Below, piece after piece: positions 1 to 19,332 of a stretch of DNA of 19,332 bases. Source of the stretch: a virus; the IMG/VR virus record IMGVR_UViG_3300045988_074229, positions 1 to 19,332 of that record. One strand, given 5' to 3'. The position numbers and the translations under genes were made by a program. Position 1 is the first letter of the stretch. The number at the start of each line of letters is the position of its first letter. Below the pieces are notes generated by a model that ran no database searches, was not told the DNA's origin, and saw nothing but the letters and a program-made list of their open reading frames with translations.

Positions 1-55
1 TTTACTTGACAGGTAGATGTATTAGTGCTATACTTATAGTAGATAAAACAGAAAG
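1..55. repeat. Left inverted terminal repeat (55 bp)
   Basis: Bases 1..55 (TTTACTTGACAGGTAGATGTATTAGTGCTATACTTATAGTAGATAAAACAGAAAG) are the exact reverse complement of 19278..19332. Identity breaks at position 56. Terminal repeats are typical of protein-primed linear phage genomes. Confidence 0.95.
6..34 (+). promoter_or_regulatory. Early promoter inside the left ITR (TTGACA-17 nt-TATACT)
   Basis: TTGACA at 6..11, 17-nt spacer, TATACT at 29..34. It points into gene 70..468, whose SD (AAAGGAG) lies at 52..58. Confidence 0.75.
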
Positions 56-69
56 GAGAAAATCTCCAA

Positions 70-1603: not shown

Positions 1604-1628
1604 ACAATAAAGAAAGCGATACTTTATT

Positions 1629-3245
1629 ATGAATACCACGAATAATAAAAAGAACCGCACTGACCGCACATTTTACGCGGCAGTGGCGGACATGACTAAC
1701 GAAAACGCGGAAAGCGTTACACTTAATAGCATTACTTTTAAACGTTGTCTCACTACTACTGCTACGACGTTTGACAGCATCGGCGCATTTTTGAAAGCCT
1801 GGGTTGGTCAAGGGCTTAACGATACAAACACAGTACACACGCTCTTTTTTCCGAATCTCGTTGAGGTCGCTGATACGCTCTTAGCGTACTTTATCGAAAA
1901 CGGTATTAAATACGATAATCAAATCGGTCTTGAGTTTTACGAGTTGCGCTTTTATGTCAACGATTACCGCTTCGAGATTAAAGATTTTAAAAAGGTCTTT
2001 GATGGTGATGTTAACGCTATGCGTGAGACCTTTAAGCTTAGCGGTAGCGACATTGATGTTTTTTGTAAAGCGGTTGAAGAATATTTCGTCGCAGGCAAAT
2101 ACGTTCGCTTTACTAATGCTTCGCAAGCGCTTTATGAATTTAAGCAAATCATGAAACAGCAAGGCTACGCCTTTGATAGTTATTTTCCACAACTTGCGGA
2201 CGATATCGATTCGCTATGTCGTGAAGTAGATAAATCTGGTTGGAATTACGTCGTTCCGAAATACGTTGATAAAGACATTAAAGGCGAGATTAATGTTTTT
2301 GATATTAATAGTATGTATGCCTTTATCCAAAAATCGGCGGTCTTGCCTTATGGTAAACCAGTCGAAATTAATACGGTATGGCCTAAAGCTCCTTTAGAAT
2401 CTCAAGTCTCTTTCGTTTCTTTTGAATGCGAATTTGAATTGAAAGACGGATTCTTTCCATTTGCTAAAACAGTAAACAGCATGTACAGCGATGGACACCT
2501 CACGTATGAAACTAAAGGACGCTCTACGTTTTGCATGACTTGGACTGAGTATCAGCTTTTTCTTAAAAGCTATGACGTCGTAGATTTTGTCTTTTTGAAA
2601 CAGGTGACTTTTGCAGGTGCCAGAGGTTTATTTGATACGTATGTAAATAAATATTACGCTGAAAAACAAGAAGCATCAACTCCTTTTAGTCGACAACATG
2701 CGAAAGCTATGCTCGTTAGTCTTTACGGAAAATTTGGCTCTAAGACTCGTCTTACGAATCGCGATCCACGAATCGACGAAACCACGGGTCGTGTGGTCTA
2801 TGAAAAAGGGCGTGATACGTTCGTAAAAGCGATTTACGCTCCAATGACTGCTGCTATTGCTTCTCTCGCTCGTACATATATTGTATCAGTCGCTCTCATG
2901 CATCGTGATAACTTTGTTTATAGTGATACGGATGCGGTACACTTGACAACTAAAGACGTGAAATTTGAAGTTGATTCAAAAAAACTCGGTGCGTTTGATT
3001 TGGAAGTCTCAGGCGTTCGCTTTAAATACATCCGTCAAAAATGTTACGCGATCGAAAAGACAGACGGTTCTCTCCACGTAAAGGTAGCAGGCATGACGGA
3101 CGCGGTCAAAAAACAGGTGACTTTTGACAATTTCAAGGTAGGTCAAAAATTCGACGGTCTCAAGAAAATGATTGGTCGTCGTGGTGGTATGTCGATTGTC
3201 ACAACTACTTTTGAAATTAAGGCAATTGACGATTTTGACTATTGA
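1629..3245 (+). CDS. Family-B protein-primed DNA polymerase (phi29 gp2-like, 538 aa)
   Basis: Motifs read directly: FDINSMYA (motif A), KAMLVSLYGKFG (motif B), FVYSDTDAVH (motif C, YxDTDS type), IRQKCYAIE and KVAGMTDAVKKQVTFDNFKVG. The last matches phi29 KCAGMTDKIKKEVTFENFKVG, recalled from memory. The N-terminal exonuclease motifs are not recognisable (see findings). Confidence 0.97.
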   Translation: MNTTNNKKNRTDRTFYAAVADMTNENAESVTLNSITFKRCLTTTATTFDSIGAFLKAWVGQGLNDTNTVHTLFFPNLVEVADTLLAYFIENGIKYDNQIGLEFYELRFYVNDYRFEIKDFKKVFDGDVNAMRETFKLSGSDIDVFCKAVEEYFVAGKYVRFTNASQALYEFKQIMKQQGYAFDSYFPQLADDIDSLCREVDKSGWNYVVPKYVDKDIKGEINVFDINSMYAFIQKSAVLPYGKPVEINTVWPKAPLESQVSFVSFECEFELKDGFFPFAKTVNSMYSDGHLTYETKGRSTFCMTWTEYQLFLKSYDVVDFVFLKQVTFAGARGLFDTYVNKYYAEKQEASTPFSRQHAKAMLVSLYGKFGSKTRLTNRDPRIDETTGRVVYEKGRDTFVKAIYAPMTAAIASLARTYIVSVALMHRDNFVYSDTDAVHLTTKDVKFEVDSKKLGAFDLEVSGVRFKYIRQKCYAIEKTDGSLHVKVAGMTDAVKKQVTFDNFKVGQKFDGLKKMIGRRGGMSIVTTTFEIKAIDDFDY

Positions 3246-3270
3246 CAATTTTTTAAAGTTTTGCTATAAT
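3242..3270 (+). promoter_or_regulatory. Consensus sigma-A promoter P1 (TTGACA-17-TATAAT) driving small RNA A
   Basis: TTGACA 3242..3247 overlaps the polymerase TGA stop. The spacer is 17 nt and TATAAT lies at 3265..3270. Confidence 0.75.
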
Positions 3271-3319
3271 GACAATGTGAGGTTAAGTGGTATTACCTCA
3301 CAGAGTATCGCTGAAATCG

Positions 3320-3348
3320 GGGCGTTAGTAGTGCAACGCTCTTTTTTT
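3320..3348 (+). terminator. Intrinsic terminator T1
   Basis: Stem GGGCGUU/AACGCUC (7 bp, one G.U), 8-nt loop AGUAGUGC, then U7 (3342..3348). It would also end the early operon. Confidence 0.75.
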
Positions 3349-3401
3349 GTACTGTTTTTAGTGGTACGCGTTAGAGTTACAGCACTACTCAGCAACGGTC
3401 A

Positions 3402-3429
3402 GGGCGTTTATAAAAACGCTCTTTTTTTT
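3402..3429 (+). terminator. Intrinsic terminator T2
   Basis: Stem GGGCGUUU/AAACGCUC (8 bp, one G.U), loop AUAA, then U8 (3422..3429). Confidence 0.8.
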
Positions 3430-3441
3430 GTATTCTAGCGC

Positions 3442-3470
3442 TTGACGTATTTGCCTTAGTGTGTTATTAT
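3442..3470 (+). promoter_or_regulatory. Promoter PB (TTGACG-17-TATTAT with upstream TGT) driving small RNA B
   Basis: TTGACG 3442..3447 and TATTAT 3465..3470, preceded by TGT. About 35 of 41 positions match the late promoter at 3837..3877 by hand alignment, including the shared GTGTTATTATAATAGTACA. Confidence 0.7.
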
Positions 3471-3477
3471 AATAGTA

Positions 3478-3644
3478 CAGAGATAGGCAAGGTAGAGCGT
3501 CTATCTCACAAAATTACATGAGTCATATTACATGAAGTACCACCTTTCTTATTAAAATCATAAAATCTCCTTTCTTTCTTATTTATCTATACTTTAAGCT
3601 CTACCACTACTACCACTTAGACGAGATGTCTAAGTGGATTTTTT
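3478..3644 (+). ncRNA. Predicted small RNA B (about 165 nt) with a pyrimidine-rich anti-SD-like core; prohead-RNA or regulatory RNA candidate
   Basis: Bounded by PB and terminator TB. The 5' hairpin is GAGAUAG (3480..3486)/CUAUCUC (3501..3507). Its loop GGUAGAGC (3491..3498) is complementary to GCUCUACC (3598..3605). Only 5- and 7-codon ATG ORFs without SD occur on this strand. Confidence 0.55.
3613..3644 (+). terminator. Intrinsic terminator TB
   Basis: Perfect 10-bp stem CCACUUAGAC/GUCUAAGUGG, loop GAGAU, then A + U6 (3639..3644). Confidence 0.85.
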
Positions 3645-3650
3645 ATATAT

Positions 3651-3678
3651 AAAAAAACAGCTTCCGTAAGGAAACTGT
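3651..3678 (-). terminator. Intrinsic terminator TC (minus strand), convergent with TB
   Basis: On the - strand: ACAGUUUCC UUAC GGAAGCUGU, a 9-bp stem with one U.G, followed by a U run (complement of A 3651..3656). On the + strand the same stem has a C/A mismatch and no U run, so it is oriented for - strand transcripts. Confidence 0.75.
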
Positions 3679-3797
3679 CTGAAGAAACTATCCGAGAGCA
3701 ACTGACAAAGCACGTGATTAAGATGCGAAAGCGTCAGGCGCAACTCAATGCGCAATCATCCTGGCGCTATGCGTCAATCACAATCGGTGCTTCTTGT
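3651..3797 (-). ncRNA. Predicted small RNA C (about 140 nt), transcribed divergently from the late promoter
   Basis: Bounded by - strand promoter PC (3804..3832) and - strand terminator TC. Internal helices: 3714..3719 with 3776..3781, 3730..3738 with 3760..3768, and 3739..3742 with 3749..3752. No SD-led ORF. Confidence 0.5.
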
Positions 3798-3803
3798 ATT
3801 ATT

Positions 3804-3832
3804 ATCTTAACACAAGTCTCAAAAAGTGTCAA
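3804..3832 (-). promoter_or_regulatory. Promoter PC (minus strand TTGACA-17-TAAGAT with upstream TGT)
   Basis: Reverse complement of 3827..3832 is TTGACA. The spacer is 17 nt. Reverse complement of 3804..3809 is TAAGAT, preceded by TGT. It shares CTTGACA...CTTGTGTTA with PB and the late promoter. Confidence 0.65.
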
Positions 3833-3837
3833 GCTAC

Positions 3838-3866
3838 TTGACATATTTGTCGTCTTGTGTTATTAT
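3838..3866 (+). promoter_or_regulatory. Late-operon promoter (TTGACA-17-TATTAT with upstream TGT)
   Basis: TTGACA 3838..3843 and TATTAT 3861..3866, followed by SD AAAGGAGG (3886..3892) and the scaffold ATG at 3903. Its -35 box lies back to back with that of PC. Confidence 0.75.
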
Positions 3867-3902
3867 AATAGTACAAATAAATGTAAAGGAGGCTTTTCCA
3901 CA

Positions 3903-4205
3903 ATGGATACAGCTTTTGAAACTAAAGACGCTCTTGAGCTTCTTGACTCACTTCCTGAACGTGTCGGAAACGACGATGAAATCGAATCAATTCTCGCGGA
4001 CTTGATTACATTAAAAGATTTTGTCAGCACGATTGATGAAATCGTGGCAACGTTGAACGAGGATGTCGCAAACCTTAACAAAAAAAACCAGGGTCTTATG
4101 GCATCAAATAACACGCTTTACCGACAAATTGGAAAACAAAACGAAGCAGCTGAAGAAGCTAAAGAAGCAGTCTCAAAAATCGCACAGATTAACGACTTGT
4201 TTTAA
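3903..4205 (+). CDS. Scaffolding protein (phi29 gp7-like, 100 aa)
   Basis: ATG at 3903 follows a strong SD AAAGGAGG. The protein is acidic and coiled-coil. LMASNNTLYRQIGKQNEAAEE resembles phi29 gp7 LIVSNSKLFRQIGLTEKQEE (recalled). The ORF-track start at 3714 would run through the promoter, so I reject it. Confidence 0.85.
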   Translation: MDTAFETKDALELLDSLPERVGNDDEIESILADLITLKDFVSTIDEIVATLNEDVANLNKKNQGLMASNNTLYRQIGKQNEAAEEAKEAVSKIAQINDLF

Positions 4206-4461: not shown

Positions 4462-5558
4462 TGAGTAATAAAATTACACGCTATATGTCCGCTGAAACTG
4501 GACAAAATGTTACTAACATTGACCTTTTGAACGCCATCCGCGAAAAAGCTTCGAACGCTTACCAAGCTGATATTCCAGTTCTTAAAGGTACAATCAACCA
4601 CGCGAACATTCCGACACAACAATTTCAAGTGCATGAAAACGAGTTTTTTGAGCAGTTGATTAACCGTATTGGATCAGTTGTTGTCAAGGCTCTCACTTAC
4701 GAAAACCCACTCGCAATTTTCAAATCTGAAATTTTCGAATTTGGTGACACGCTTGAAGAAATCTACGTAGCACCTGCAGAACGTAATAACTTTAACGCAA
4801 AAGATAACGGTCATCCATTCGCTTTTGCTGATACAGATATTGAAGTGTTCTATCACAAGTTGAATAACGAATATCGTTATGACCGTACGTTCGAGCGCGC
4901 ATGGGTTCAAAAAGCATTTACATCAGATATGGCATTTGATGAATTTATTGACAAGATGTTCACATCACTTATCAGCTCTGACACGCTTGACGAATATGCA
5001 GCAGTTAAACAAGTCCTTAACGACTCACTCGCTGAAGTGACTTACACCGATAACGCAGGTACAGCTCATCAAATTACGGTAGCAGGTACGAAAGTTGATA
5101 CGACTCATAACAATTATATCGAAGAGATGGTAAAAGACATCATCGCGAAATCGAAACAGTTTACGATTCCATCACGCGACAAAGCTCACTCAAACAATCC
5201 AGTTGGTGTACCTAATGCAACGCCACTCGAAGATCAATATCTTATCATCGATGCGGAATACTCGACAGATATTGACCTCATGTTAGCTAACGCTTTTAAC
5301 ATGGATAAAGCTTCAGTCCAAGCTCGTCAAATTGTTGTCGATTTCTTCGACAAATTTACTGGAGCTGGTCAAAATAACGGACGCCGTCCCGTTGCCTTCC
5401 TTGTTTCTAAGAATTCAATTATTCTTAAAGACAAATTGGTACACATGGAAAGTATTCGCAATCCGAAGACAATGTCTTATAACTACTTCTACCATCACCA
5501 CTATTTGACAAGCCTTTCACTCTTTGAAAACATCCACATGTTCTACGTGGAAGACTAA
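4461..5558 (+). CDS. Major capsid protein (phi29 gp8-like, 365 aa)
   Basis: Matches to recalled phi29 gp8: [10 protein letters not shown] vs [32 protein letters not shown] vs [41 protein letters not shown] vs METVRNPRGLYWNYYYHV. Strong SD AAGGAG. A terminator follows. Confidence 0.95.
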   Translation: [365 protein letters not shown]

Positions 5559-5632: not shown

Positions 5633-6670
5633 TTGAATACTGTAAATTATCACAGTTTAAAAGAATATACAAAAACACTTGGACGCATTGACCACAGCAA
5701 AACAACGGTGGATCGTAATCGTACCGCATGGTATAACTTTTACTTTAACTACTTTTATGACATTGTCGTAAACTATTTTAGCTGGTACAACTTGCCAAAC
5801 GACCTCGATGAACTTTTTATAGAGCGTAAGCTTTTAGAAAATGGACACGTTGCATTTTTCGAAGACGAAGAATTAGGTTTTGTGGCACAGGGTGGAACAC
5901 GTGGCCAAGAGCTTAATATCTACGATTACCCTACCACTTATCTGCCTGTGAACGCGGCTCAACAGATGCGCTTTCCGAAAATGCAAATCGCGTACAGTAA
6001 AAGAGATTTTGATCTCTTGCAAAAAATGCACAACGAAACGCGAACCGATAAGCCTTGTATAGTTATTCCTAATAATAATCTCTTCGAACCGTATCTTGAT
6101 TACATTCATCTATATTGCGAAAAGCTGGCAGACATTGAAATGACAATTCAGCTGAATCGAAACGCTCAGGTCACACCGTTCTTTGTTTTAGCTGATGAAA
6201 AATCTGTTTTAAGTTTAAAGAACATTTTTAACAAAATTCAAAGCTTCGAGCCCGTTGTATATGCAAACACACAAAAAAACGCGGCAGGTACCGCGGACTT
6301 CCAACAATTAGACGACCGCATTAAAGTCTTTCGCACGGAAGCACCTTACCTTCTTGACAAGTTACATGACGAAAAGAATCGCGTTATTAATCAGCTTCTC
6401 ACGTTTATTGGAATTAATAACAATCCCGTTGATAAAGCTGAGCGTCTAGTTACTGCTGAAGCAATTTCAAACGCAGGCATTATTTCCGCAAATATTGAAG
6501 TTGGTTGGAAGTCTCGACGAAACGCAGTAAAACGCATTAATGAAGCTTACGGGCTTGATATAGATGTTGAGCCTGCGGAATGGGTACAACGCTTTAACTT
6601 TGCGGACGTTGAAAAAGATTTAAATACCGAAAATCTTGATGATAACGCGGACGGAGGGCTTCAACCATGA
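5633..6670 (+). CDS. Portal / upper collar connector (phi29 gp10-like, 345 aa), TTG start
   Basis: Matches to recalled gp10: [30 protein letters not shown] vs [59 protein letters not shown] vs [44 protein letters not shown] vs KINELYGLNVKVK. SD GAGGA lies 7 nt before the TTG. Confidence 0.93.
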   Translation: [345 protein letters not shown]

Positions 6671-11820: not shown

Positions 11821-14800
11821 TTGGTAAAAGAAACAACAAAAATTAAGCTTTATTCAAAATCGCCATTTCGGAGCGATTACGCGAACGTTATCCATTTTGA
11901 CAATCGCGACGAGATGCAAAAATATTTTGATACCGATTCACCGCATCTAAAGAAAATTTATGAATCTGATAATTTTCAATTTATTTCGCGAACGGGTGAA
12001 ATCTACGTGAGCGGACGTCAGGAACAATTTGAGACAGCGACTTACATGTTTTTTAAAAACGCAGGTAAGGAATATTACGCGTTTGTTTACGACATTGCGT
12101 ATATTAACGAGAACACCACAAAAATTATTTATGAGTTGGATATTTGGAACACTTACCAACCAATGTTATTTAACAAAAACACTCAAGTCAGCGGAACCAT
12201 TGCGCAATATTTACCGTATTTACCGAGCGACGATAAAAACTTTAGAGCACGTCATACAAACACGCAAGGCTTTAACGTCGGAAGTAAAGCTACGGAAGAA
12301 ATTTATGACGTAGGCGCAAACTTAGTGGACTGGCTCGTTATTGTAGCTAAGCCAGAATTTAAATTTAAAGGTGAAGCAGGAACACCCGCGTCAGACATGT
12401 CTTTCTCAGGTACTCAAAAAAGCTTAAAATACTATTTTGTACCCGTCGAAATTGCAGGAAAAATGACGAAACAGTTTGAGCTCGACGGTCAGACCTATCC
12501 ACCAAAGCCAATCGTCACAATTTTGCTCGAGTGCTTCGGTATTACTGTCGGCGGTAAGCATATTAGTCCAACCAAGGACAATACGGCGGACGCGCAAAAC
12601 ATCGCCGCAAATAATATCGTAAATATGTACTACTCACGCTACCTTGGTATCGATTACGATTATGACGGAAGCGTTGTCAAGATTAAAAAAGCGGATGGCG
12701 ATATTTTCAACGTCGTAGGCGTTGGACGCCAATCATCAGCCGCACCTTCAGGCGGTTCGGGGGATCTCGTAACAGTCGGAGGGCCTACGGGAAGCGAGAA
12801 AGAAATCGCTGAACGTATTGCAAAAACTATAAAAGCAAATTATCCACCTGCAACGGTTAACGGAATCGCAGCACTCCTTGGAAACGCTAAACAAGAGTCA
12901 TCAATGGACTATACCATCGACGTTGCGGCAGGGCTTGGGCTTTGGCAATGGACGAGCACACGGGCGCAAGGTTTGCGAAATTATGCACACTCGAAAGGCA
13001 TTTCTGAACACACTATCGAAGCGCAAGTCGGATGGCTCCTTAACGAGCCAGGAGAAAGCGAAACGGCGAAAGCTGTACTTTCAGGAAACGATAGCGCTGG
13101 CAATTTGTCTGACATTTTTGTCACACGTTGGGAGCGCGCAGGTATTCCAGTCGCGGACAAGCGCAGAGCATACGCCGAAAGCTTCGTTCCTGTTGTTAAA
13201 GCTGTAATTAATGACGTAGGCAATAACAGCAACGCAGGAAAAAACGCGGACAATAAAACAACATCAGCGCCAAAACCTGCAGAAGTAACTGAAAAAGTTA
13301 TCGCAAAAGTAAAAGCTATGGCAAATAAAAGCGTAGGTAACGGACAATGTTACGCGCTCTCGTCTTATTATTGTCAGTGTTTCCGAGAGTTGGGCGTTGA
13401 TGCGCCTGGACTCGGTGCAGGCGTCGGAAATCTTTATAAACAAATCGGCGACACTTATAACGCTTACGCAATCGGAAGCGCTTACGACTGGAAATCATGC
13501 GGGTGGGGTGTGAAATTTAATCCATCGGAAGAAGATTTTAAAAACGCCGCGGGCTGTATGATTAACTATAAACCAAACTACGGACCAACGGTGACAGGCG
13601 GTGCAGGGCATACCGGTATTTGTATAAGCTACGATGGACACAGCTTACACACCGTGGAACAAAACTACGGCAACAACGGCTATACTTTGGACCACGTCGT
13701 CACACACGTTCACGCGGATGCTTTGTCTAGTATTGTGATACCACCGGACGTACTCGCAGGCGGAAAGATTAATCCTGACGTTGTTGGAGACGCAAGCGGT
13801 GGAGATGGCTCAGGCGGTGCGAATAGTGCGGCTTATATCGTAAAAATTGTAGAGCATCCAAAAGCAGCGCCTAAATTTATCGAGATTGACGAACTAAAAC
13901 CTAAGATTCTAAAACGTCTCAAAGCGTATATCAAAGACACGTTAGGCGAACGTTTCGTTCACATGGCGAACCAATTGCTTTTAATTTCCGAACTTATTGA
14001 CGTCGAATTGTACGATTATTACGGAAACACGTACGCTTATCAGCTCGAGCTTTTGAACAATCTCCAAACCGAGGACGGTAAGTACTACAATAAATCAGCC
14101 ATAATGCTACTCGGAAGCGTTGGAGACCAAAATTACAATTTTGCGGGGCTCGTTGGATACGGTCACACTCATAATATTGTTGATCAAAATAATAAGACTT
14201 TTAAAATTAAAGCAAAAGCGGACGAGAACATTATATCCAAGTGGGATATTATGCAATACGGAATTTTTGACACAACAGGAAAAAATCTGACAATTCTCGA
14301 CGACGCTACGGCTACGTACATTCAAGGACACGCGGCACAGATTAAAGCGCAACAAGCAAGCTTTAATGAAAACGCAAGCCTCCAAAGACAACAAGCGGAT
14401 ATGAACAATCGTCAGACCTCATTTGCTAACGACAAAAATATTTACGGAGCGAATTTCGCAGTGGATCAAAGCGTCTTCAAGCGCGGAAAAGCTGGAGTCA
14501 TGGCAACAGTAGACGTCGCGACAAATGCGCTCGACATCTTTTCTCCACTTAAAAAAGATGAGACTTATTTGGGTAAGTTTATGTCAACGGCAAGCAACAC
14601 CGCAAAAGCAGGAATGAACGGATACTACAACGTCCAACAGTCGCTCATGGATGTCACAAACGCAAAAGTAAATCGTTCCTTTGCGCAAGATGAAAACGAA
14701 TTACGTAGCCAAAGTACAGCGCTCGCGAACTTGCAAGCAAAAACAGCCATTGACCAACAAATCCGCGCCTTTAACGCGACAATGACAGACTTACAAAATC

Positions 14801-15210
14801 AACCTGATGGCATACAACAAATGGGTAACGATATTAGCTTCCAAACAAGTAATTACCAACAAGGATTATTTATTCGTATTCGTTTTCCATATCCAGAACA
14901 ACTTAAAACAGTTTTGACATATATGCATCTCTACGGTTATATCTATCAAACAGAATCAAACGACGTTTTAAAATATGCATATAATCGCAAAGCGTTTAAC
15001 TATATTAAATTAACAAGCGTGGATGTCAGCGGACTTGAAGCACCGCAAAGCGACTTAGCTATGATTAAAAATATCTTAGCATCAGGCGTGCGAATCTGGG
15101 AAGCGAAATACTTAGATTATACTAAGCCTAAGCCGTTTGACATCTATACGCAAAACCCAAACCGTGCGGACGACCAGGCGGTTCTTGACAGCTATCGAAA
15201 CTTTGATTAA
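11821..15210 (+). CDS. Tail knob protein (phi29 gp9-like) with inserted tail-lysozyme-like and CHAP peptidoglycan-hydrolase domains (1129 aa), TTG start
   Basis: The N-terminus SPFRSDYANVIHFDNRDEMQKYF resembles phi29 gp9 VPFSNDYKNTRWFTSSSNQYNWF (recalled). Gly/Ser linkers lie near 12730..12790 and 13786..13830. The lysozyme-like segment is LLGNAKQESSMDY...GLGLWQWTS...RWERAG. The CHAP segment is GNGQCYALSSYY...GAGHTGICISYDG...VEQN. Confidence 0.85.
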   Translation: MVKETTKIKLYSKSPFRSDYANVIHFDNRDEMQKYFDTDSPHLKKIYESDNFQFISRTGEIYVSGRQEQFETATYMFFKNAGKEYYAFVYDIAYINENTTKIIYELDIWNTYQPMLFNKNTQVSGTIAQYLPYLPSDDKNFRARHTNTQGFNVGSKATEEIYDVGANLVDWLVIVAKPEFKFKGEAGTPASDMSFSGTQKSLKYYFVPVEIAGKMTKQFELDGQTYPPKPIVTILLECFGITVGGKHISPTKDNTADAQNIAANNIVNMYYSRYLGIDYDYDGSVVKIKKADGDIFNVVGVGRQSSAAPSGGSGDLVTVGGPTGSEKEIAERIAKTIKANYPPATVNGIAALLGNAKQESSMDYTIDVAAGLGLWQWTSTRAQGLRNYAHSKGISEHTIEAQVGWLLNEPGESETAKAVLSGNDSAGNLSDIFVTRWERAGIPVADKRRAYAESFVPVVKAVINDVGNNSNAGKNADNKTTSAPKPAEVTEKVIAKVKAMANKSVGNGQCYALSSYYCQCFRELGVDAPGLGAGVGNLYKQIGDTYNAYAIGSAYDWKSCGWGVKFNPSEEDFKNAAGCMINYKPNYGPTVTGGAGHTGICISYDGHSLHTVEQNYGNNGYTLDHVVTHVHADALSSIVIPPDVLAGGKINPDVVGDASGGDGSGGANSAAYIVKIVEHPKAAPKFIEIDELKPKILKRLKAYIKDTLGERFVHMANQLLLISELIDVELYDYYGNTYAYQLELLNNLQTEDGKYYNKSAIMLLGSVGDQNYNFAGLVGYGHTHNIVDQNNKTFKIKAKADENIISKWDIMQYGIFDTTGKNLTILDDATATYIQGHAAQIKAQQASFNENASLQRQQADMNNRQTSFANDKNIYGANFAVDQSVFKRGKAGVMATVDVATNALDIFSPLKKDETYLGKFMSTASNTAKAGMNGYYNVQQSLMDVTNAKVNRSFAQDENELRSQSTALANLQAKTAIDQQIRAFNATMTDLQNQPDGIQQMGNDISFQTSNYQQGLFIRIRFPYPEQLKTVLTYMHLYGYIYQTESNDVLKYAYNRKAFNYIKLTSVDVSGLEAPQSDLAMIKNILASGVRIWEAKYLDYTKPKPFDIYTQNPNRADDQAVLDSYRNFD

Positions 15211-15226
15211 GGAGGTGTAACAATGG

Positions 15227-16306
15227 ATGGAACAACATAAAAAGGAATGGTACAATCCACAGAAAATGCTATCTTATAATCAATTTCTCAACTTTGTTAT
15301 CGGCGGGCGTGATATCGGTAAAACTTTCGCGATGAAAAAATATCTGTTACAACAATTTGTAAAAAATGGTAAACAATCGCTCTATCTGCGACGCAATAAA
15401 ACAGAACTGGACGGCATAGACAAAGAAAGCTTTTTCCCTCGTATTATGCTTGAGCAAATCTTCCCAAACTACGAAGAAGCAGAAGTGAACGTATCGCGAA
15501 CACAAACTAAAATAACTTTTACATCAACGCTCGAAGGTTACGAGGACGGTGAGTTTATCATAACGAGCGGAAAAATCATGCTGAATGGACGCGTTGTTAT
15601 TTACTTAAAATCTCTCAGCACGTGGGTGAATTTAAAAGGTTCAGAGTACGATAACGTTTACTTTATAATGTTCGATGAAGTCTTAATCGACACAAGCTCT
15701 AACAAGCGCTATCTTAAAAACGAAGTAGAAGCTTTTCTAAATCTCTTAATTTCGGTATTTCGACAACGTAAAAACTGTCACGTATACTTGCTCTCAAATG
15801 CTGCGAACATCAACAACCCGTATTTTGCGTATTTTAAATTTTACGAAAACACAGACAGACGCTTTTACAACTTAAAAGACCGCCGTATCCTGATTGAATT
15901 TCCACCTAATCAACCGTTTGACGGTTCATCAGACGACGACATTTACCATCTTATCAAGGATTCAAAGATTTACGATTCGGTGGCAAATAATAAATTTCAA
16001 GTCGGCCGAGGTAAAAATATCGGAAAGCTCAAAGGCGAGAAGACTTATCTTTATTCTCTCTATATAGACGGAGTTACTCTCTCTTGCTACAGTTGTAATG
16101 GCTTAGTATACGTAAAAGTCGGATATGACAAACACCGCAACATTTACAGCGTAGACCCTGCGGAATCTGAAAACGGTCTCATTTACATGGACAGAAGCTC
16201 AGATCTCGCGTGGACTCTCCGACAATGCTATTTAAAAAACTGCATATGGTACGAAAACGCTGAGGCAAAAAACTACATGCTAACGCTTATATCTAAAATC
16301 CTATAA
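15227..16306 (+). CDS. DNA encapsidation ATPase (phi29 gp16-like, 359 aa)
   Basis: WYNPQKMLSYNQFLNFVIGGRDIGKTFAMKK matches recalled gp16 FYNPQKMLSYDRILNFVIGARGIGKSYAMK. Walker A is GGRDIGKT and Walker B is VYFIMFDEV. SD GGAGG is upstream. Confidence 0.95.
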   Translation: MEQHKKEWYNPQKMLSYNQFLNFVIGGRDIGKTFAMKKYLLQQFVKNGKQSLYLRRNKTELDGIDKESFFPRIMLEQIFPNYEEAEVNVSRTQTKITFTSTLEGYEDGEFIITSGKIMLNGRVVIYLKSLSTWVNLKGSEYDNVYFIMFDEVLIDTSSNKRYLKNEVEAFLNLLISVFRQRKNCHVYLLSNAANINNPYFAYFKFYENTDRRFYNLKDRRILIEFPPNQPFDGSSDDDIYHLIKDSKIYDSVANNKFQVGRGKNIGKLKGEKTYLYSLYIDGVTLSCYSCNGLVYVKVGYDKHRNIYSVDPAESENGLIYMDRSSDLAWTLRQCYLKNCIWYENAEAKNYMLTLISKIL

Positions 16307-18064: not shown

Positions 18065-18095
18065 AAAAAAGAGCCGTAATGGCTCTTTTCTTATT
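18065..18095. terminator. Bidirectional intrinsic terminator between the convergent late and right-early operons
   Basis: Stem AGAGCC/GGCUCU (18070..18075 with 18081..18086), loop GUAAU. It is flanked by A6 upstream and a T-rich tract downstream, so a U run follows the hairpin on both strands. Confidence 0.8.
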
Positions 18096-19277: not shown

Positions 19278-19332
19278 CTTTCTGTTTTATCTACTATAAG
19301 TATAGCACTAATACATCTACCTGTCAAGTAAA
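19278..19332. repeat. Right inverted terminal repeat (55 bp)
   Basis: Exact reverse complement of 1..55, checked base by base. Confidence 0.95.
19299..19327 (-). promoter_or_regulatory. Early promoter inside the right ITR (TTGACA-17-TATACT on the minus strand)
   Basis: Mirror copy of 6..34. It drives the three - strand genes. Confidence 0.75.

What the first reader, a model, noticed from the sequence alone, without database searches (positions are those of the whole stretch)
3246..3902. 657-bp protein-free island with 4 promoters, 4 terminators and 3 predicted small RNAs: candidate prohead-RNA / regulatory RNA locus
Elsewhere this genome is tightly packed, with ATGA/TAATG overlaps and short intergenic gaps. 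Yet 3.4% of it, between the polymerase and the late operon, has no SD-led ORF. The island holds a perfect TTGACA-17-TATAAT promoter (3242..3270) followed by two tandem terminators. It also holds a second promoter-terminator unit (3442..3644) and a third unit on the opposite strand (3832 down to 3651). The genome encodes clear phi29-type portal (5633..6670) and gp16-type ATPase (15227..16306) homologues. In phi29 these two are bridged by an oligomeric prohead RNA of about 120-174 nt. To my knowledge such pRNAs have been characterised experimentally only in Bacillus phi29 relatives. The sizes predicted here (about 72/155, 165 and 140 nt) fit that range. Three separate transcription units rather than one would be new for this phage group.
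Basis: partly seen in the sequence, partly recalled or inferred. Interest (0 to 1): 0.85.

Follow-up and report, generated by a model that had tools for sequence, protein, structure and literature searches.

The report
Prohead-RNA gene plus two small RNAs
The gene-free gap in this small phi29/Cp-1-like phage genome holds three compact RNA genes; one of them, on the opposite strand, is a clear relative of the DNA-packaging "prohead RNA", which has been studied experimentally only in Bacillus phages.

Summary
Window 3246-3902 has no credible ORF. It holds four of the genome's six best promoter matches and four of its eight best terminators, and it is more conserved among relatives than the flanking genes.

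It folds into a long 5'/3' helix, a three-way junction, a C helix with a 7-nt bulge (AUGAUUG), an E hairpin CGCA[UUGAGU]UGCG and a D hairpin with loop CUUAAUCAC. The E hexaloop is the same as in phi29.

- A covariance model built only from this clade finds the syntenic Cp-1 element (E about 2e-6) and homologues in all 21 Cp-1-like metagenomic loci.
- Across 34 sequences, 92.5% of cells pair (67% when shuffled), and the kissing loops covary through six alleles.
- Rfam's pRNA model matches neither this window nor Cp-1.

The two plus-strand RNAs (about 72/153 nt and about 168 nt) occur only in this clade and are not pRNA-like. Their functions are hypotheses only.

The parts
3242..3270 (+). P1: perfect sigma-70 promoter TTGACA-17-(TGc)TATAAT. 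Its -35 box overlaps the pol stop codon, and it is the same type as the promoters in the terminal repeats.
   Evidence: 12/12 matches, TG; sequence; conserved in 10 genomes, with TATACT in two of them.
3277..3349 (+). RNA1, short form (about 72 nt). It has a 5' hairpin at 3277-3301 with the invariant loop UUAAGUGGUAUU, a single-stranded linker at 3302-3318, and terminator T1 (3319-3342 plus a U run).
   Evidence: The stem shows one compensatory change (GC to AU) and U.G wobble changes that pair only on the plus strand. The linker AGAGUAUCGCU is complementary to the pol translation start region at 1615-1625.
3350..3430 (+). Read-through extension of RNA1 (long form about 153 nt), ending at terminator T2 (3401-3422 plus a U run). 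GCACUACU at 3382-3389 is complementary to the T1 loop AGUAGUGC at 3327-3334.
   Evidence: T1 and T2 share AACGCTCTTTTTTT (D2).
3442..3470 (+). P2: a copy of the late-promoter module (TTGACG-17-TATTAT with TG; 78% identical to P4 over 55 nt).
   Evidence: (D1).
3477..3645 (+). RNA2 (about 168 nt). It has a 5' hairpin at 3480-3508 whose loop GGUAGAGC is complementary to GCUCUACC at 3598-3605. Next comes a G-poor, CU-rich, unstructured stretch at about 3535-3597 with CACCUUUCU and UCUCCUUUCUUUCU. It ends in terminator T3 (3613-3637 plus a U run).
   Evidence: There are compensatory changes in the 5' hairpin (L011) and in T3. Indels and loss of a start codon in relatives exclude coding on either strand.
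3648..3797 (-). RNA3, a pRNA-like RNA of about 150 nt.
- Domain I, 3795..3682 (114 nt): A helix formed by the 5' and 3' ends, and a three-way junction.
- C helix with the CE bulge AUGAUUG at 3759..3753.
- E hairpin at 3752..3739, with loop UUGAGU at 3748..3743.
- D hairpin at 3726..3710, with loop CUUAAUCAC at 3722..3714.
- Terminator hairpin at 3680..3655, followed by a U run.
   Evidence: Fold z = -4.8. RNAalifold consensus with 6 compensated pairs. Covariance-model hits to Cp-1 and relatives. Covariation counts. Strand assigned from G.U versus A.C cells.
3753..3758 (-). Kissing-loop partner 1: UGAUUG in the CE bulge.
   Evidence: Complementary to UAAUCA in the D loop. Three of the six positions covary across the clades.
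3715..3720 (-). Kissing-loop partner 2: UAAUCA in the D loop.
3804..3832 (-). P3: promoter of RNA3 (TTGACA-17-TAAGAT with TG). It is the mirror copy of P4.
   Evidence: (I1: 40-nt inverted repeat, 3794-3833 / 3837-3876).
3838..3902 (+). P4: late-operon promoter (TTGACA-17-TATTAT with TG, start site at about 3873), followed by the leader with SD AAAGGAGG upstream of the scaffold ATG at 3903.
   Evidence: The scaffold-like ORF gives a weak PF11418 match.

Best explanation
**What the island is.** The island is a cluster of three small non-coding RNA genes. In Cp-1, two protein genes (orf6/orf7) and one RNA gene occupy the same position.

**RNA3, the minus-strand gene.** RNA3 runs from about 3797 to 3648. 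Its promoter is a mirror copy of the late-operon promoter.
- Shown: RNA3 is a conserved structured RNA, transcribed from the minus strand, and homologous to a syntenic element in Cp-1 and Cp-1-like phages.
- Shown: it has the phi29 pRNA topology, with covarying complementary loops.
- Inferred: the CE bulge (UGAUUG) of one molecule pairs with the D loop (UAAUCA) of the next, closing a ring on the portal vertex of the prohead.
- Inferred: the C-E-D region, with its phi29-like UUGAGU E loop, docks on the portal and capsid. The long 5'/3' A helix projects outward and holds the gp16-type ATPase, which pumps the protein-capped genome into the head.

**RNA1.** RNA1 comes from the early-type, perfect-consensus promoter P1. 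It is about 72 nt, or about 153 nt on read-through. It is a candidate base-pairing small RNA. Its invariant single-stranded linker can cover positions -14 to -4 of the polymerase start site. The same sequence is also the 3' end of the early operon transcript. This role is inferred and only weakly supported.

**RNA2.** RNA2 comes from a third copy of the late-promoter module and is about 168 nt. It displays a CU-rich, anti-Shine-Dalgarno-like stretch. Its function is unknown. A role as a binder of SD sequences is speculation.
For: **Fold and covariation within the clade**
- RNA3 fold: z = -4.8, with 0 of 200 shuffles folding as well.
- Alignment of nine clade members: 47 pairs, 6 of them with compensatory changes.

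**Homology to the Cp-1 element**
- Model R1, built from this clade alone, hits Cp-1 at 4648-4806 (minus strand) at 43.5 bits, E about 2e-6. It also hits 14 Cp-1-like loci. Every hit is full length and on the strand opposite to pol.
- Model R2 hits all 21 Cp-1-like loci plus Cp-1 and Cp-7, with E from 1e-8 to 1e-20.
- The Cp-1 RNA folds the same way: z = -5.6, bulge AUGGUUA, D loop UUCUAACCAAC.

**Covariation across 34 sequences**
- 92.5% of cells pair, against 66.8% after shuffling and 39-46% with the partners slid.
- 46 of 53 pairs changed on both sides.
- The kissing helix, which the model does not describe, is 95.3% paired, and 3 of its 6 pairs changed on both sides.
- Six pairing alleles occur.

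**Strand.** G.U cells make up 11.1% of helix cells, against 0.5% A.C cells.

**Resemblance to phi29**
- The same order of elements: A helix, C helix, 5'-side bulge, 4-bp E stem, UUGAGU loop, U-rich junction, D hairpin.
- Domain I is 114 nt here and 117-118 nt in phi29.

**Genome context.** The phage encodes a gp10-type connector and a gp16-type ATPase.

**Conservation.** The island is more conserved than the flanking genes.

**Promoters.** P2, P3 and P4 are copies of one module.

**RNA1 and the pol start region**
- 11 bp of complementarity, with both partners invariant in 10 genomes.
- 14-45 of 1000 shuffles reach this length.
Against: - There are no expression or prohead data, so transcript ends and function are predictions.
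- Rfam RF00044 does not match this window, even at E of 10 or less on a 166-nt slice.
- My models do not match phi29 pRNA. The link to phi29 therefore rests on architecture and on one identical hexaloop, not on statistical homology.
- The gene lies mid-genome, next to the late promoter. In phi29 it lies at the left end, under early promoter A1.
- The bulge and D loop could pair within one molecule, as a pseudoknot, instead of between molecules.
- The alignments were fitted to the model, and the sequences are related. Both inflate the shuffle-based controls.
- The helices and targets proposed for RNA1 and RNA2 involve invariant sequence, so no covariation supports them.
- RNA2's complementarity to phage start sites is no better than chance.
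Confidence: 0.72

Rival explanations
1. RNA3 is a conserved structured small RNA with a regulatory role, for example control of the adjacent late promoter or of a host target. The bulge and D-loop complementarity forms an intramolecular pseudoknot, and the RNA plays no part in packaging.
For: No experimental link to proheads exists. There is no Rfam pRNA match. The gene sits back to back with the late promoter inside a 40-nt mirror repeat, which would suit a regulatory role. Covariation of the loops cannot tell pairing within a molecule from pairing between molecules.
Against: The element order, the sizes and the E loop match phi29 pRNA point by point. The RNA is found with phi29-type portal and ATPase genes. 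It was found in all 21 Cp-1-like loci examined, plus Cp-1, Cp-7 and the nine close relatives. No extended complementarity to any phage transcript was found.
Confidence: 0.13
2. The plus-strand half of the island (3246-3645) is only transcriptional punctuation. T1 and T2 end the early operon, T3 shields the pRNA gene, and P1 and P2 are spare or decoy promoters. On this view RNA1 and RNA2 are by-products with no function of their own.
For: T1 lies 75 nt after the pol stop codon and is backed up by T2, its near-duplicate. RNA1 and RNA2 have no homologues outside this clade. There is no covariation beyond the hairpins. RNA2's matches to phage targets are at chance level.
Against: The transcribed parts are 90-95% conserved, more than the flanking genes. 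They include invariant loops and an invariant CU-rich core of about 60 nt, which punctuation would not need. P1 is the only 12/12 consensus promoter in the genome. Two 8-nt loop-to-distal complementarities are strictly conserved: AGUAGUGC/GCACUACU and GGUAGAGC/GCUCUACC.
Confidence: 0.25
3. All three units are packaging RNAs, either components of the motor or alternative pRNAs.
For: All three fall in the 70-170 nt size range. RNA2 and RNA3 share a promoter module with the late operon.
Against: The pRNA model matches the window once only, at 3646-3799 on the minus strand. RNA1 is a hairpin, a linker and a terminator. RNA2 is mostly unstructured. Cp-1-like relatives have only the one RNA and carry ORFs where RNA1 and RNA2 lie.
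Confidence: 0.03
4. The island encodes small proteins that ORF rules miss.
For: Several ORFs of 20-43 aa exist. The minus strand opposite RNA2 has two strong SD-ATG motifs (sequence).
Against: The ORFs start at TTG or GTG without an SD and run through terminator hairpins. Indels of 1-2 nt and lost start codons among close relatives break every candidate frame. The minus-strand mini-ORF is 12, 3 or 2 codons long in different genomes. No promoter faces the minus-strand motifs except read-through of the RNA3 terminator.
Confidence: 0.03

Closest known systems
Putative pRNA of Streptococcus phage Cp-1 / Cp-7 (proposed by Martin, Lopez and Garcia, J Virol 1996; cited as 'the pRNA of Cp1' in PMC6266182)
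   Same: - Position: between the replication genes and the scaffold gene.
- Strand: opposite to pol, diverging from the late promoter.
- Length: about 150 nt.
- Fold: A helix, three-way junction, 7-nt bulge, E hairpin, D hairpin, then a terminator hairpin (one search compared).
- Detected by a model built only from the window clade (E about 2e-6).
   Different: - Sequence similarity is too low for nhmmer.
- Kissing pair: UGAUUG/UAAUCA here, UGGUUA/UAACCA in Cp-1.
- E loop: UUGAGU here (as in phi29), UCAAGG in Cp-1.
- Promoters: in Cp-1 the RNA promoter overlaps the late promoter; here the two are mirror copies placed back to back.
- Neighbours: Cp-1 has orf6/orf7 where this phage has RNA1 and RNA2.
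- Polymerases are only about 29% identical.
- The Cp-1 RNA has, to my knowledge, never been tested experimentally. I could not read the 1996 paper to confirm that its coordinates match the element I describe.
phi29 prohead/packaging RNA (Rfam RF00044; Bacillus phages phi29, M2/Nf, B103, SF5, GA-1 and relatives)
   Same: - Encoded by a phage with a gp10 connector, a gp16 ATPase, a terminal protein and a type-B polymerase.
- Domain I is about 115 nt.
- The 5' and 3' ends pair in a long, interrupted A helix.
- A three-way junction with a U-rich strand.
- The C helix carries a 5'-side bulge complementary to the D hairpin loop.
- A 4-bp E stem closes the identical hexaloop UUGAGU.
- A dispensable-looking 3' hairpin follows domain I.
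   Different: - No match to the Rfam model, and my models do not match phi29.
- The bulge is 7 nt here and 9 nt in phi29; the D loop is 9 nt here and 5 nt in phi29.
- The kissing helix is 5-6 bp of A/U-rich sequence here, against AACC/GGUU in phi29.
- The gene lies mid-genome under a late-type promoter module, not at the left end under early promoter A1.
- Function is not tested here.
Promoter-hairpin-terminator base-pairing small RNAs of Firmicutes with C/U-rich seed regions that bind Shine-Dalgarno sequences (for example RsaE-type; from general knowledge, not tested here)
   Same: RNA1 and RNA2 are compact units with their own sigma-70 promoter and an intrinsic terminator. Each has invariant single-stranded stretches. 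RNA2 carries CUCCUUUCU, identical to the 3' end of Gram-positive 16S rRNA as I recall it.
   Different: No homology to any Rfam family. No significant target found for RNA2. The RNA1 target (the pol start site) is nominally significant only. Both RNAs are phage-encoded and confined to one clade.

Membership tests
phi29-type pRNA (Rfam RF00044 Phage_pRNA) | Scores above the family's gathering threshold with the curated covariance model | tested here: not met
   No hit at the gathering threshold. No hit at E of 10 or less on 901 nt or on 166 nt. The control, phi29, scores 145 bits. Cp-1 and Cp-7 also fail.
phi29-type pRNA (Rfam RF00044 Phage_pRNA) | The 5' and 3' ends pair in a long A helix that leads to a three-way junction with a C/E arm and a D arm, in that order | tested here: met
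   MFE fold, RNAalifold consensus and covariation over 34 sequences. Element order compared with the Rfam structure line for phi29.
   UGAUUG pairs with UAAUCA. 95.3% of cells pair, 3 of 6 positions changed on both sides, and six alleles occur. Whether the pairing is between molecules cannot be told from sequence.
phi29-type pRNA (Rfam RF00044 Phage_pRNA) | E hairpin with a conserved hexaloop | tested here: met
   CGCA[UUGAGU]UGCG here and CUGA[UUGAGU]UCAG in phi29. Other clade members have UCAAGG, UUAAGG or UUAACU.
phi29-type pRNA (Rfam RF00044 Phage_pRNA) | Encoded together with a gp10-type connector and a gp16-type packaging ATPase | tested here: met
   PF05352, E 2e-103; PF05894, E 1e-46.
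phi29-type pRNA (Rfam RF00044 Phage_pRNA) | Gene at the left genome end, transcribed from early promoter A1 | tested here: not met
   The gene lies at 3648-3797, mid-genome, under a mirror copy of the late promoter. In phi29 it lies at 147-320.
phi29-type pRNA (Rfam RF00044 Phage_pRNA) | Binds proheads as an oligomeric ring and is required for DNA packaging | not testable with these tools
   Needs prohead purification and packaging assays.
Cp-1-type putative pRNA | Sequence-and-structure homology to the Cp-1 element | tested here: met
   Model R1, built from the window clade only, hits Cp-1 at 4648-4806 (minus strand), full length, 43.5 bits, E 8e-7 to 2e-6. Model R2 scores the window at 146.9 bits and Cp-1 at 128 bits.
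Cp-1-type putative pRNA | Lies between the replication module and the scaffold gene, on the strand opposite to pol, with its own promoter and terminator | tested here: met
   Window. Cp-1: minus-strand TTGACA-17-TATGAT at 4836..4808, and a terminator at 4682..4659 followed by a U run (sequence; fold). All 23 hits lie on the minus strand downstream of pol.
Trans-acting base-pairing small RNA (RNA1) | An independent transcription unit with a conserved single-stranded seed complementary to a target mRNA | tested here: inconclusive
   The unit and an invariant seed are present. There is an 11-bp match to the pol start region at 1615-1625, which is invariant in 10 genomes. 14-45 of 1000 shuffles do as well. 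There is no covariation.
Trans-acting base-pairing small RNA (RNA2) | A conserved accessible seed with a specific target | tested here: inconclusive
   An invariant CU-rich core is present. The best matches to phage start sites are no better than shuffles, 201-380 of 1000. Host targets cannot be tested.

The most novel reading that the evidence does not exclude
The island is a three-RNA control-and-assembly hub that replaces two protein genes of Cp-1-type phages.
- RNA3: a bona fide prohead RNA, co-transcribed with the late genes from mirror-image promoters.
- RNA1: an early small RNA that shuts off polymerase translation by covering its start site. It may act in trans, or as the 3' end of the early mRNA folding back over 1.7 kb.
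- RNA2: a late, abundant RNA that mimics the anti-Shine-Dalgarno sequence and sequesters SD sequences, so reprogramming translation.

The covariance model would also define a pRNA superfamily reaching well beyond Bacillus phages. It would include a third, low-GC clade (L065/L068/L073).
Probability: 0.15. Interest if true: 0.8.

Novelty: new member of a known kind. Interest (0 to 1): 0.62.

Why it matters
Recent reviews still describe prohead RNA as a feature unique to phi29 and related Bacillus phages (PMC11476376). The only non-Bacillus case, Cp-1, is a 1996 prediction that existing covariance models cannot recover (PMC6266182).

This window, its nine relatives and the Cp-1-like metagenomic phages now give an alignment of 34 sequences with strong covariation. 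That covariation includes the loop-loop contact that builds the ring. The result turns a single old prediction into a testable RNA family with natural "compensatory mutants".

- It gives a working model for annotating pRNA genes in streptococcal-type phi29-like phages.
- It offers new three-way-junction and kissing-loop variants for RNA nanotechnology.
- It makes testable the question of whether RNA-dependent packaging is ancestral to the whole phi29-like group.

The two extra small RNAs are a secondary lead on phage-encoded riboregulation.

Tried and rejected
**Rfam and database searches**
- Rfam at the gathering threshold on the whole window, and at E of 10 or less on 3100-4000 and on 3640-3805. 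Only chance-level hits, none to pRNA.
- megablast and blastn of the window and of the island against GenBank phages. No match. The phage has no close sequenced relative, and its polymerase is 28-35% identical to those of Cp-1, Cp-7 and phi29.
- A protein search for intermediate relatives. Identity jumps from 89-97% straight down to about 31%, so covariation had to come from the distant Cp-1-like clades through the covariance model.

**Searches with my own models and profiles**
- nhmmer profiles of RNA1, RNA2 and RNA3 against 92 loci. Only the close clade was found.
- Models R1 and R2 against phi29. No hit, even with filters off.

**Pattern scans of the collections**
- The RNA2 core in IMG/VR. 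Only the same nine contigs.
- The RNA1 loop in IMG/VR. Nine extra hits, all chance matches inside coding regions of unrelated contigs.
- The late-promoter 18-mer in metagenome contigs. Mostly chance hits, with few new clade members.

**Target searches**
- blastn-short and RNAduplex screens of the three RNAs against the genome and against 21 start regions. Only the RNA1 match to the pol start region stands out.
- The 9-nt match between the RNA1 loop (UAAGUGGUA) and the RNA2 terminator arm. Rejected because relatives do not keep it.

**Coding and other checks**
- A minus-strand mini-ORF behind the strong SD motifs opposite RNA2. Rejected because of frame-breaking indels.
- The portal N-terminus shows no clear RKR motif like that of phi29. 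This is uninformative.
- The 1996 Cp-1 paper is not in the library.
Full report
**What the window is**

The window is a complete linear genome of 19.3 kb. Its two ends share about 55 nt of inverted terminal repeat, and each repeat carries a TTGACA-17-TATACT promoter.

It encodes these phi29-type proteins:
- a protein-primed type-B polymerase at 1629-3245;
- a phi29-type major capsid protein (PF25622);
- a gp10-type connector (PF05352, E 2e-103);
- a gp16-type ATPase (PF05894, E 1e-46);
- a tail protein with a gp9-type domain;
- a holin and a CHAP+GH25 lysin.

Gene order is that of Streptococcus phage Cp-1, not that of phi29. The phage has no close sequenced relative. There is no DNA match in GenBank phages, and its polymerase is 28-35% identical to those of Cp-1, Cp-7 and phi29. 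Nine IMG/VR contigs form a tight clade with it, with polymerase 89-98% identical. In the protein database the next relatives are at about 31%.

**Check of the observation**

- The gap from the pol stop (3245) to the scaffold-like ATG (3903) holds only TTG/GTG ORFs of 20-43 aa, with no SD, that run through terminators. Relatives carry 1-2 nt indels and lost start codons in every candidate frame.
- Four of the six promoter matches in the genome with at least 10/12 matches plus an extended -10 TG lie in the island. The other two are the terminal-repeat promoters.
- Four of the eight strongest terminator matches lie in the island, which is 3.4% of the genome.
- P1 is the only 12/12 consensus promoter, and its -35 box contains the pol stop codon.
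- The island is 90-94% identical to the nine relatives. The same comparison gives 81-92% for pol, 86-88% for the capsid gene and 82-85% for the portal gene. A non-coding stretch that is better conserved than its coding neighbours is under selection.

**Anatomy**

- P1 (3242-3270, +) drives RNA1. RNA1 has a 5' hairpin at 3277-3301, a 17-nt linker, terminator T1 ending at 3349 (about 72 nt), and on read-through T2 ending at 3430 (about 153 nt).
- P2 (3442-3470, +) drives RNA2, 3477 to about 3645.
- P3 (3832..3804, -) drives RNA3, about 3797 to about 3648.
- P4 (3838-3866, +) drives the late operon.
- P2 and P4 are 78% identical over 55 nt. P3 and P4 form a 40-nt inverted repeat centred on 3834-3836. 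RNA2, RNA3 and the late genes therefore share one promoter module. P1 resembles the terminal-repeat promoters (sequence).

**RNA3 is a pRNA-type RNA**

On the minus strand the unit folds with z = -4.8. In the nine distinct clade sequences, RNAalifold gives 47 pairs, 6 of them with compensatory changes. The consensus structure, in order:
- a long helix between the 5' and 3' ends, interrupted twice;
- a three-way junction;
- a C helix;
- a 7-nt bulge on the 5' side (AUGAUUG);
- a 4-bp E stem closing the hexaloop UUGAGU;
- a U-rich junction strand;
- a D hairpin with loop CUUAAUCAC;
- after the closing helix, an 11-bp terminator hairpin.

Domain I is 114 nt. The bulge sequence UGAUUG is complementary to UAAUCA in the D loop.

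The Rfam alignment of phi29 pRNA shows the same order of elements. It has a 9-nt bulge whose AACC pairs with GGUU in the D loop, an E stem CUGA[UUGAGU]UCAG with the same hexaloop, and a UUU junction strand.

**Homology to Cp-1**

In Cp-1, the stretch between orf7 and the scaffold gene carries minus-strand signals (sequence):
- a TTGACA-17-TATGAT promoter at 4836..4808;
- a hairpin at 4682..4659 followed by a U run.

The RNA between them folds with z = -5.6 into the same architecture. Its bulge is AUGGUUA and its D loop is UUCUAACCAAC, which gives a 6-bp complement, UGGUUA/UAACCA.

Covariance-model searches gave these results:
- Model R1, built only from the window clade, finds the Cp-1 RNA full length at 43.5 bits, E about 2e-6 in 0.9 Mb. 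It also finds 14 Cp-1-like metagenomic loci, always on the strand opposite to pol.
- Model R2, built from those hits, finds the element in all 21 Cp-1-like loci plus Cp-1 and Cp-7, with E from 1e-8 to 1e-20.
- Neither model finds a second match in the window.

**Covariation across 34 sequences (alignment A7, 32 distinct rows)**

- 92.5% of pair cells are standard pairs. The figure is 66.8% after shuffling and 39-46% when the partners are slid by 1-3 columns.
- 46 of 53 pairs show changes on both sides.
- The bulge and D-loop helix is not part of the model, so it is not favoured by the alignment step. It is 95.3% paired, with double-sided changes at three of six positions.
- Six pairing alleles occur: UGAUUG/UAAUCA, GAUUA/UAAUC, UGGUUA/UAACCA, GGUAA/UUACC, UGAUUA/UAAUCA and AGAUUA/UAAUCU.
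- G.U pairs make up 11.1% of helix cells and A.C only 0.5%. This fixes the transcribed strand as the minus strand.

**Limits of the pRNA claim**

- Rfam RF00044 does not match the window, Cp-1 or Cp-7.
- My models do not match phi29.
- Membership in the phi29 family as Rfam defines it is therefore not met.
- What is shown is membership in a Cp-1-type family and a point-by-point architectural match to phi29 pRNA.
- Function in packaging is inferred from that match and from the co-occurring portal and ATPase genes.
- The literature held here says that pRNA is regarded as unique to phi29 and related Bacillus phages (PMC11476376). It also says that a phi29-group model could not reliably find "the pRNA of Cp1" proposed by Martin et al. 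1996 (PMC6266182).
- I could not read the 1996 paper.

**RNA1 and RNA2**

Both are restricted to the window clade. They sit where the Cp-1-like phages have about 900 nt holding orf6 and orf7.

RNA1:
- It is a classical small-RNA unit.
- Its 5' stem shows one compensatory change and U.G changes that pair only on the plus strand. Its loop and linker are invariant.
- The linker AGAGUAUCGCU (3302-3312) can form 11 bp with 1615-1625, which is positions -14 to -4 of the pol start codon. That stretch is invariant in all ten genomes although its surroundings vary.
- Only 14-45 of 1000 shuffles reach this length over 21 start regions. I treat this as suggestive, not proven.
- T1 probably also ends the early operon, so the same sequence would be the 3' end of the pol mRNA.

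RNA2:
- It has a 5' hairpin with one compensated pair. The loop GGUAGAGC matches GCUCUACC 100 nt downstream.
- It has an invariant G-poor stretch with CACCUUUCU and UCUCCUUUCUUUCU, and a terminator with several compensatory changes.
- The CU-rich motifs resemble the 3' end of 16S rRNA (from memory).
- Complementarity to phage start sites is at chance level.
- Its function is unknown.

**Mechanism proposed**

RNA3 is made from a mirror copy of the late promoter and oligomerises through bulge and D-loop pairing. It docks on the portal vertex through its C-E-D part and offers its A helix to the gp16-type ATPase. This bridges portal and motor during packaging of the protein-capped genome, as established for phi29.

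Shown here:
- the RNA gene and its strand;
- its structure;
- loop complementarity with covariation;
- homology to the Cp-1 element;
- co-occurrence with the portal and ATPase genes.

Inferred:
- ring formation;
- prohead binding;
- the requirement for packaging.

**Verdict**

I rate the finding as a new member of a known, though only predicted, kind. The added value is that the family can now be modelled and tested, and two unexplained clade-specific small RNAs lie next to it.

Noticed in passing
L065:1921-2073(-), L068:1239-1391(-), L073:1980-2069(-): A third clade of phi29-like contigs (616-aa polymerase; GC 0.20-0.23 across the matched RNA) gives marginal hits to the pRNA model, E 0.02 with default filters and 0.001 with filters off. 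In L065 the hit lies in a gap between ORFs upstream of the terminal-protein and polymerase genes. It is on the opposite strand, with its own TGtTATAAT promoter and its own terminator. It has a perfect 6-bp kissing pair, AGAUUA/UAAUCU. It is probably a further pRNA subfamily at a different genome position.
   Followed up: partly
window 3794-3876: The pRNA promoter P3 and the late promoter P4 form a 40-nt inverted repeat around GTGTCAAG-CTA-CTTGACA, and P2 is a third copy of the same module. The palindrome at the two -35 boxes could be a binding site for a regulator.
   Followed up: partly
window 1612-1631: The polymerase gene lacks a well-placed Shine-Dalgarno sequence. Its only candidate is GAAAG, 13 nt upstream of the start codon. 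The 20 nt before its ATG are invariant in ten genomes, apart from one T-to-C change in L009, although the surrounding intergenic sequence varies.
   Followed up: partly
window 50-67: The Shine-Dalgarno sequence of the first early gene (ATG at 70) lies inside a hairpin, GGAGAAAATCTCC. This may be translational control of the leftmost gene.
   Followed up: no
window 1-55 and 19278-19332: The genome ends are inverted terminal repeats of about 55 nt. Each contains an outward-to-inward TTGACA-17-TATACT promoter, as expected for a protein-primed linear genome.
   Followed up: partly
L001 (Cp-1, Z47794) 4659-4682: The feature annotated as a terminator after orf7 in Cp-1 has its U run on the minus strand. 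It is the terminator of the minus-strand pRNA-like RNA. The record annotates no RNA gene there.
   Followed up: yes
window 18065-18091: A bidirectional terminator hairpin lies between the lysin gene (plus strand) and the right-end leftward genes.
   Followed up: no
window 11821-15210: One ORF of 1129 aa combines a Caud_tail_N domain, a phage tail lysozyme domain and the C-terminal domain of the phi29 gp9 tail knob.
   Followed up: no
window 3327-3334 / 3382-3389 and 3492-3499 / 3598-3605: There are two strictly conserved 8-nt loop-to-distal complementarities. In RNA1, the T1 loop AGUAGUGC matches GCACUACU. In RNA2, the 5' hairpin loop GGUAGAGC matches GCUCUACC. These could be pseudoknots or contacts between molecules. 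No covariation is available to test them.
   Followed up: partly
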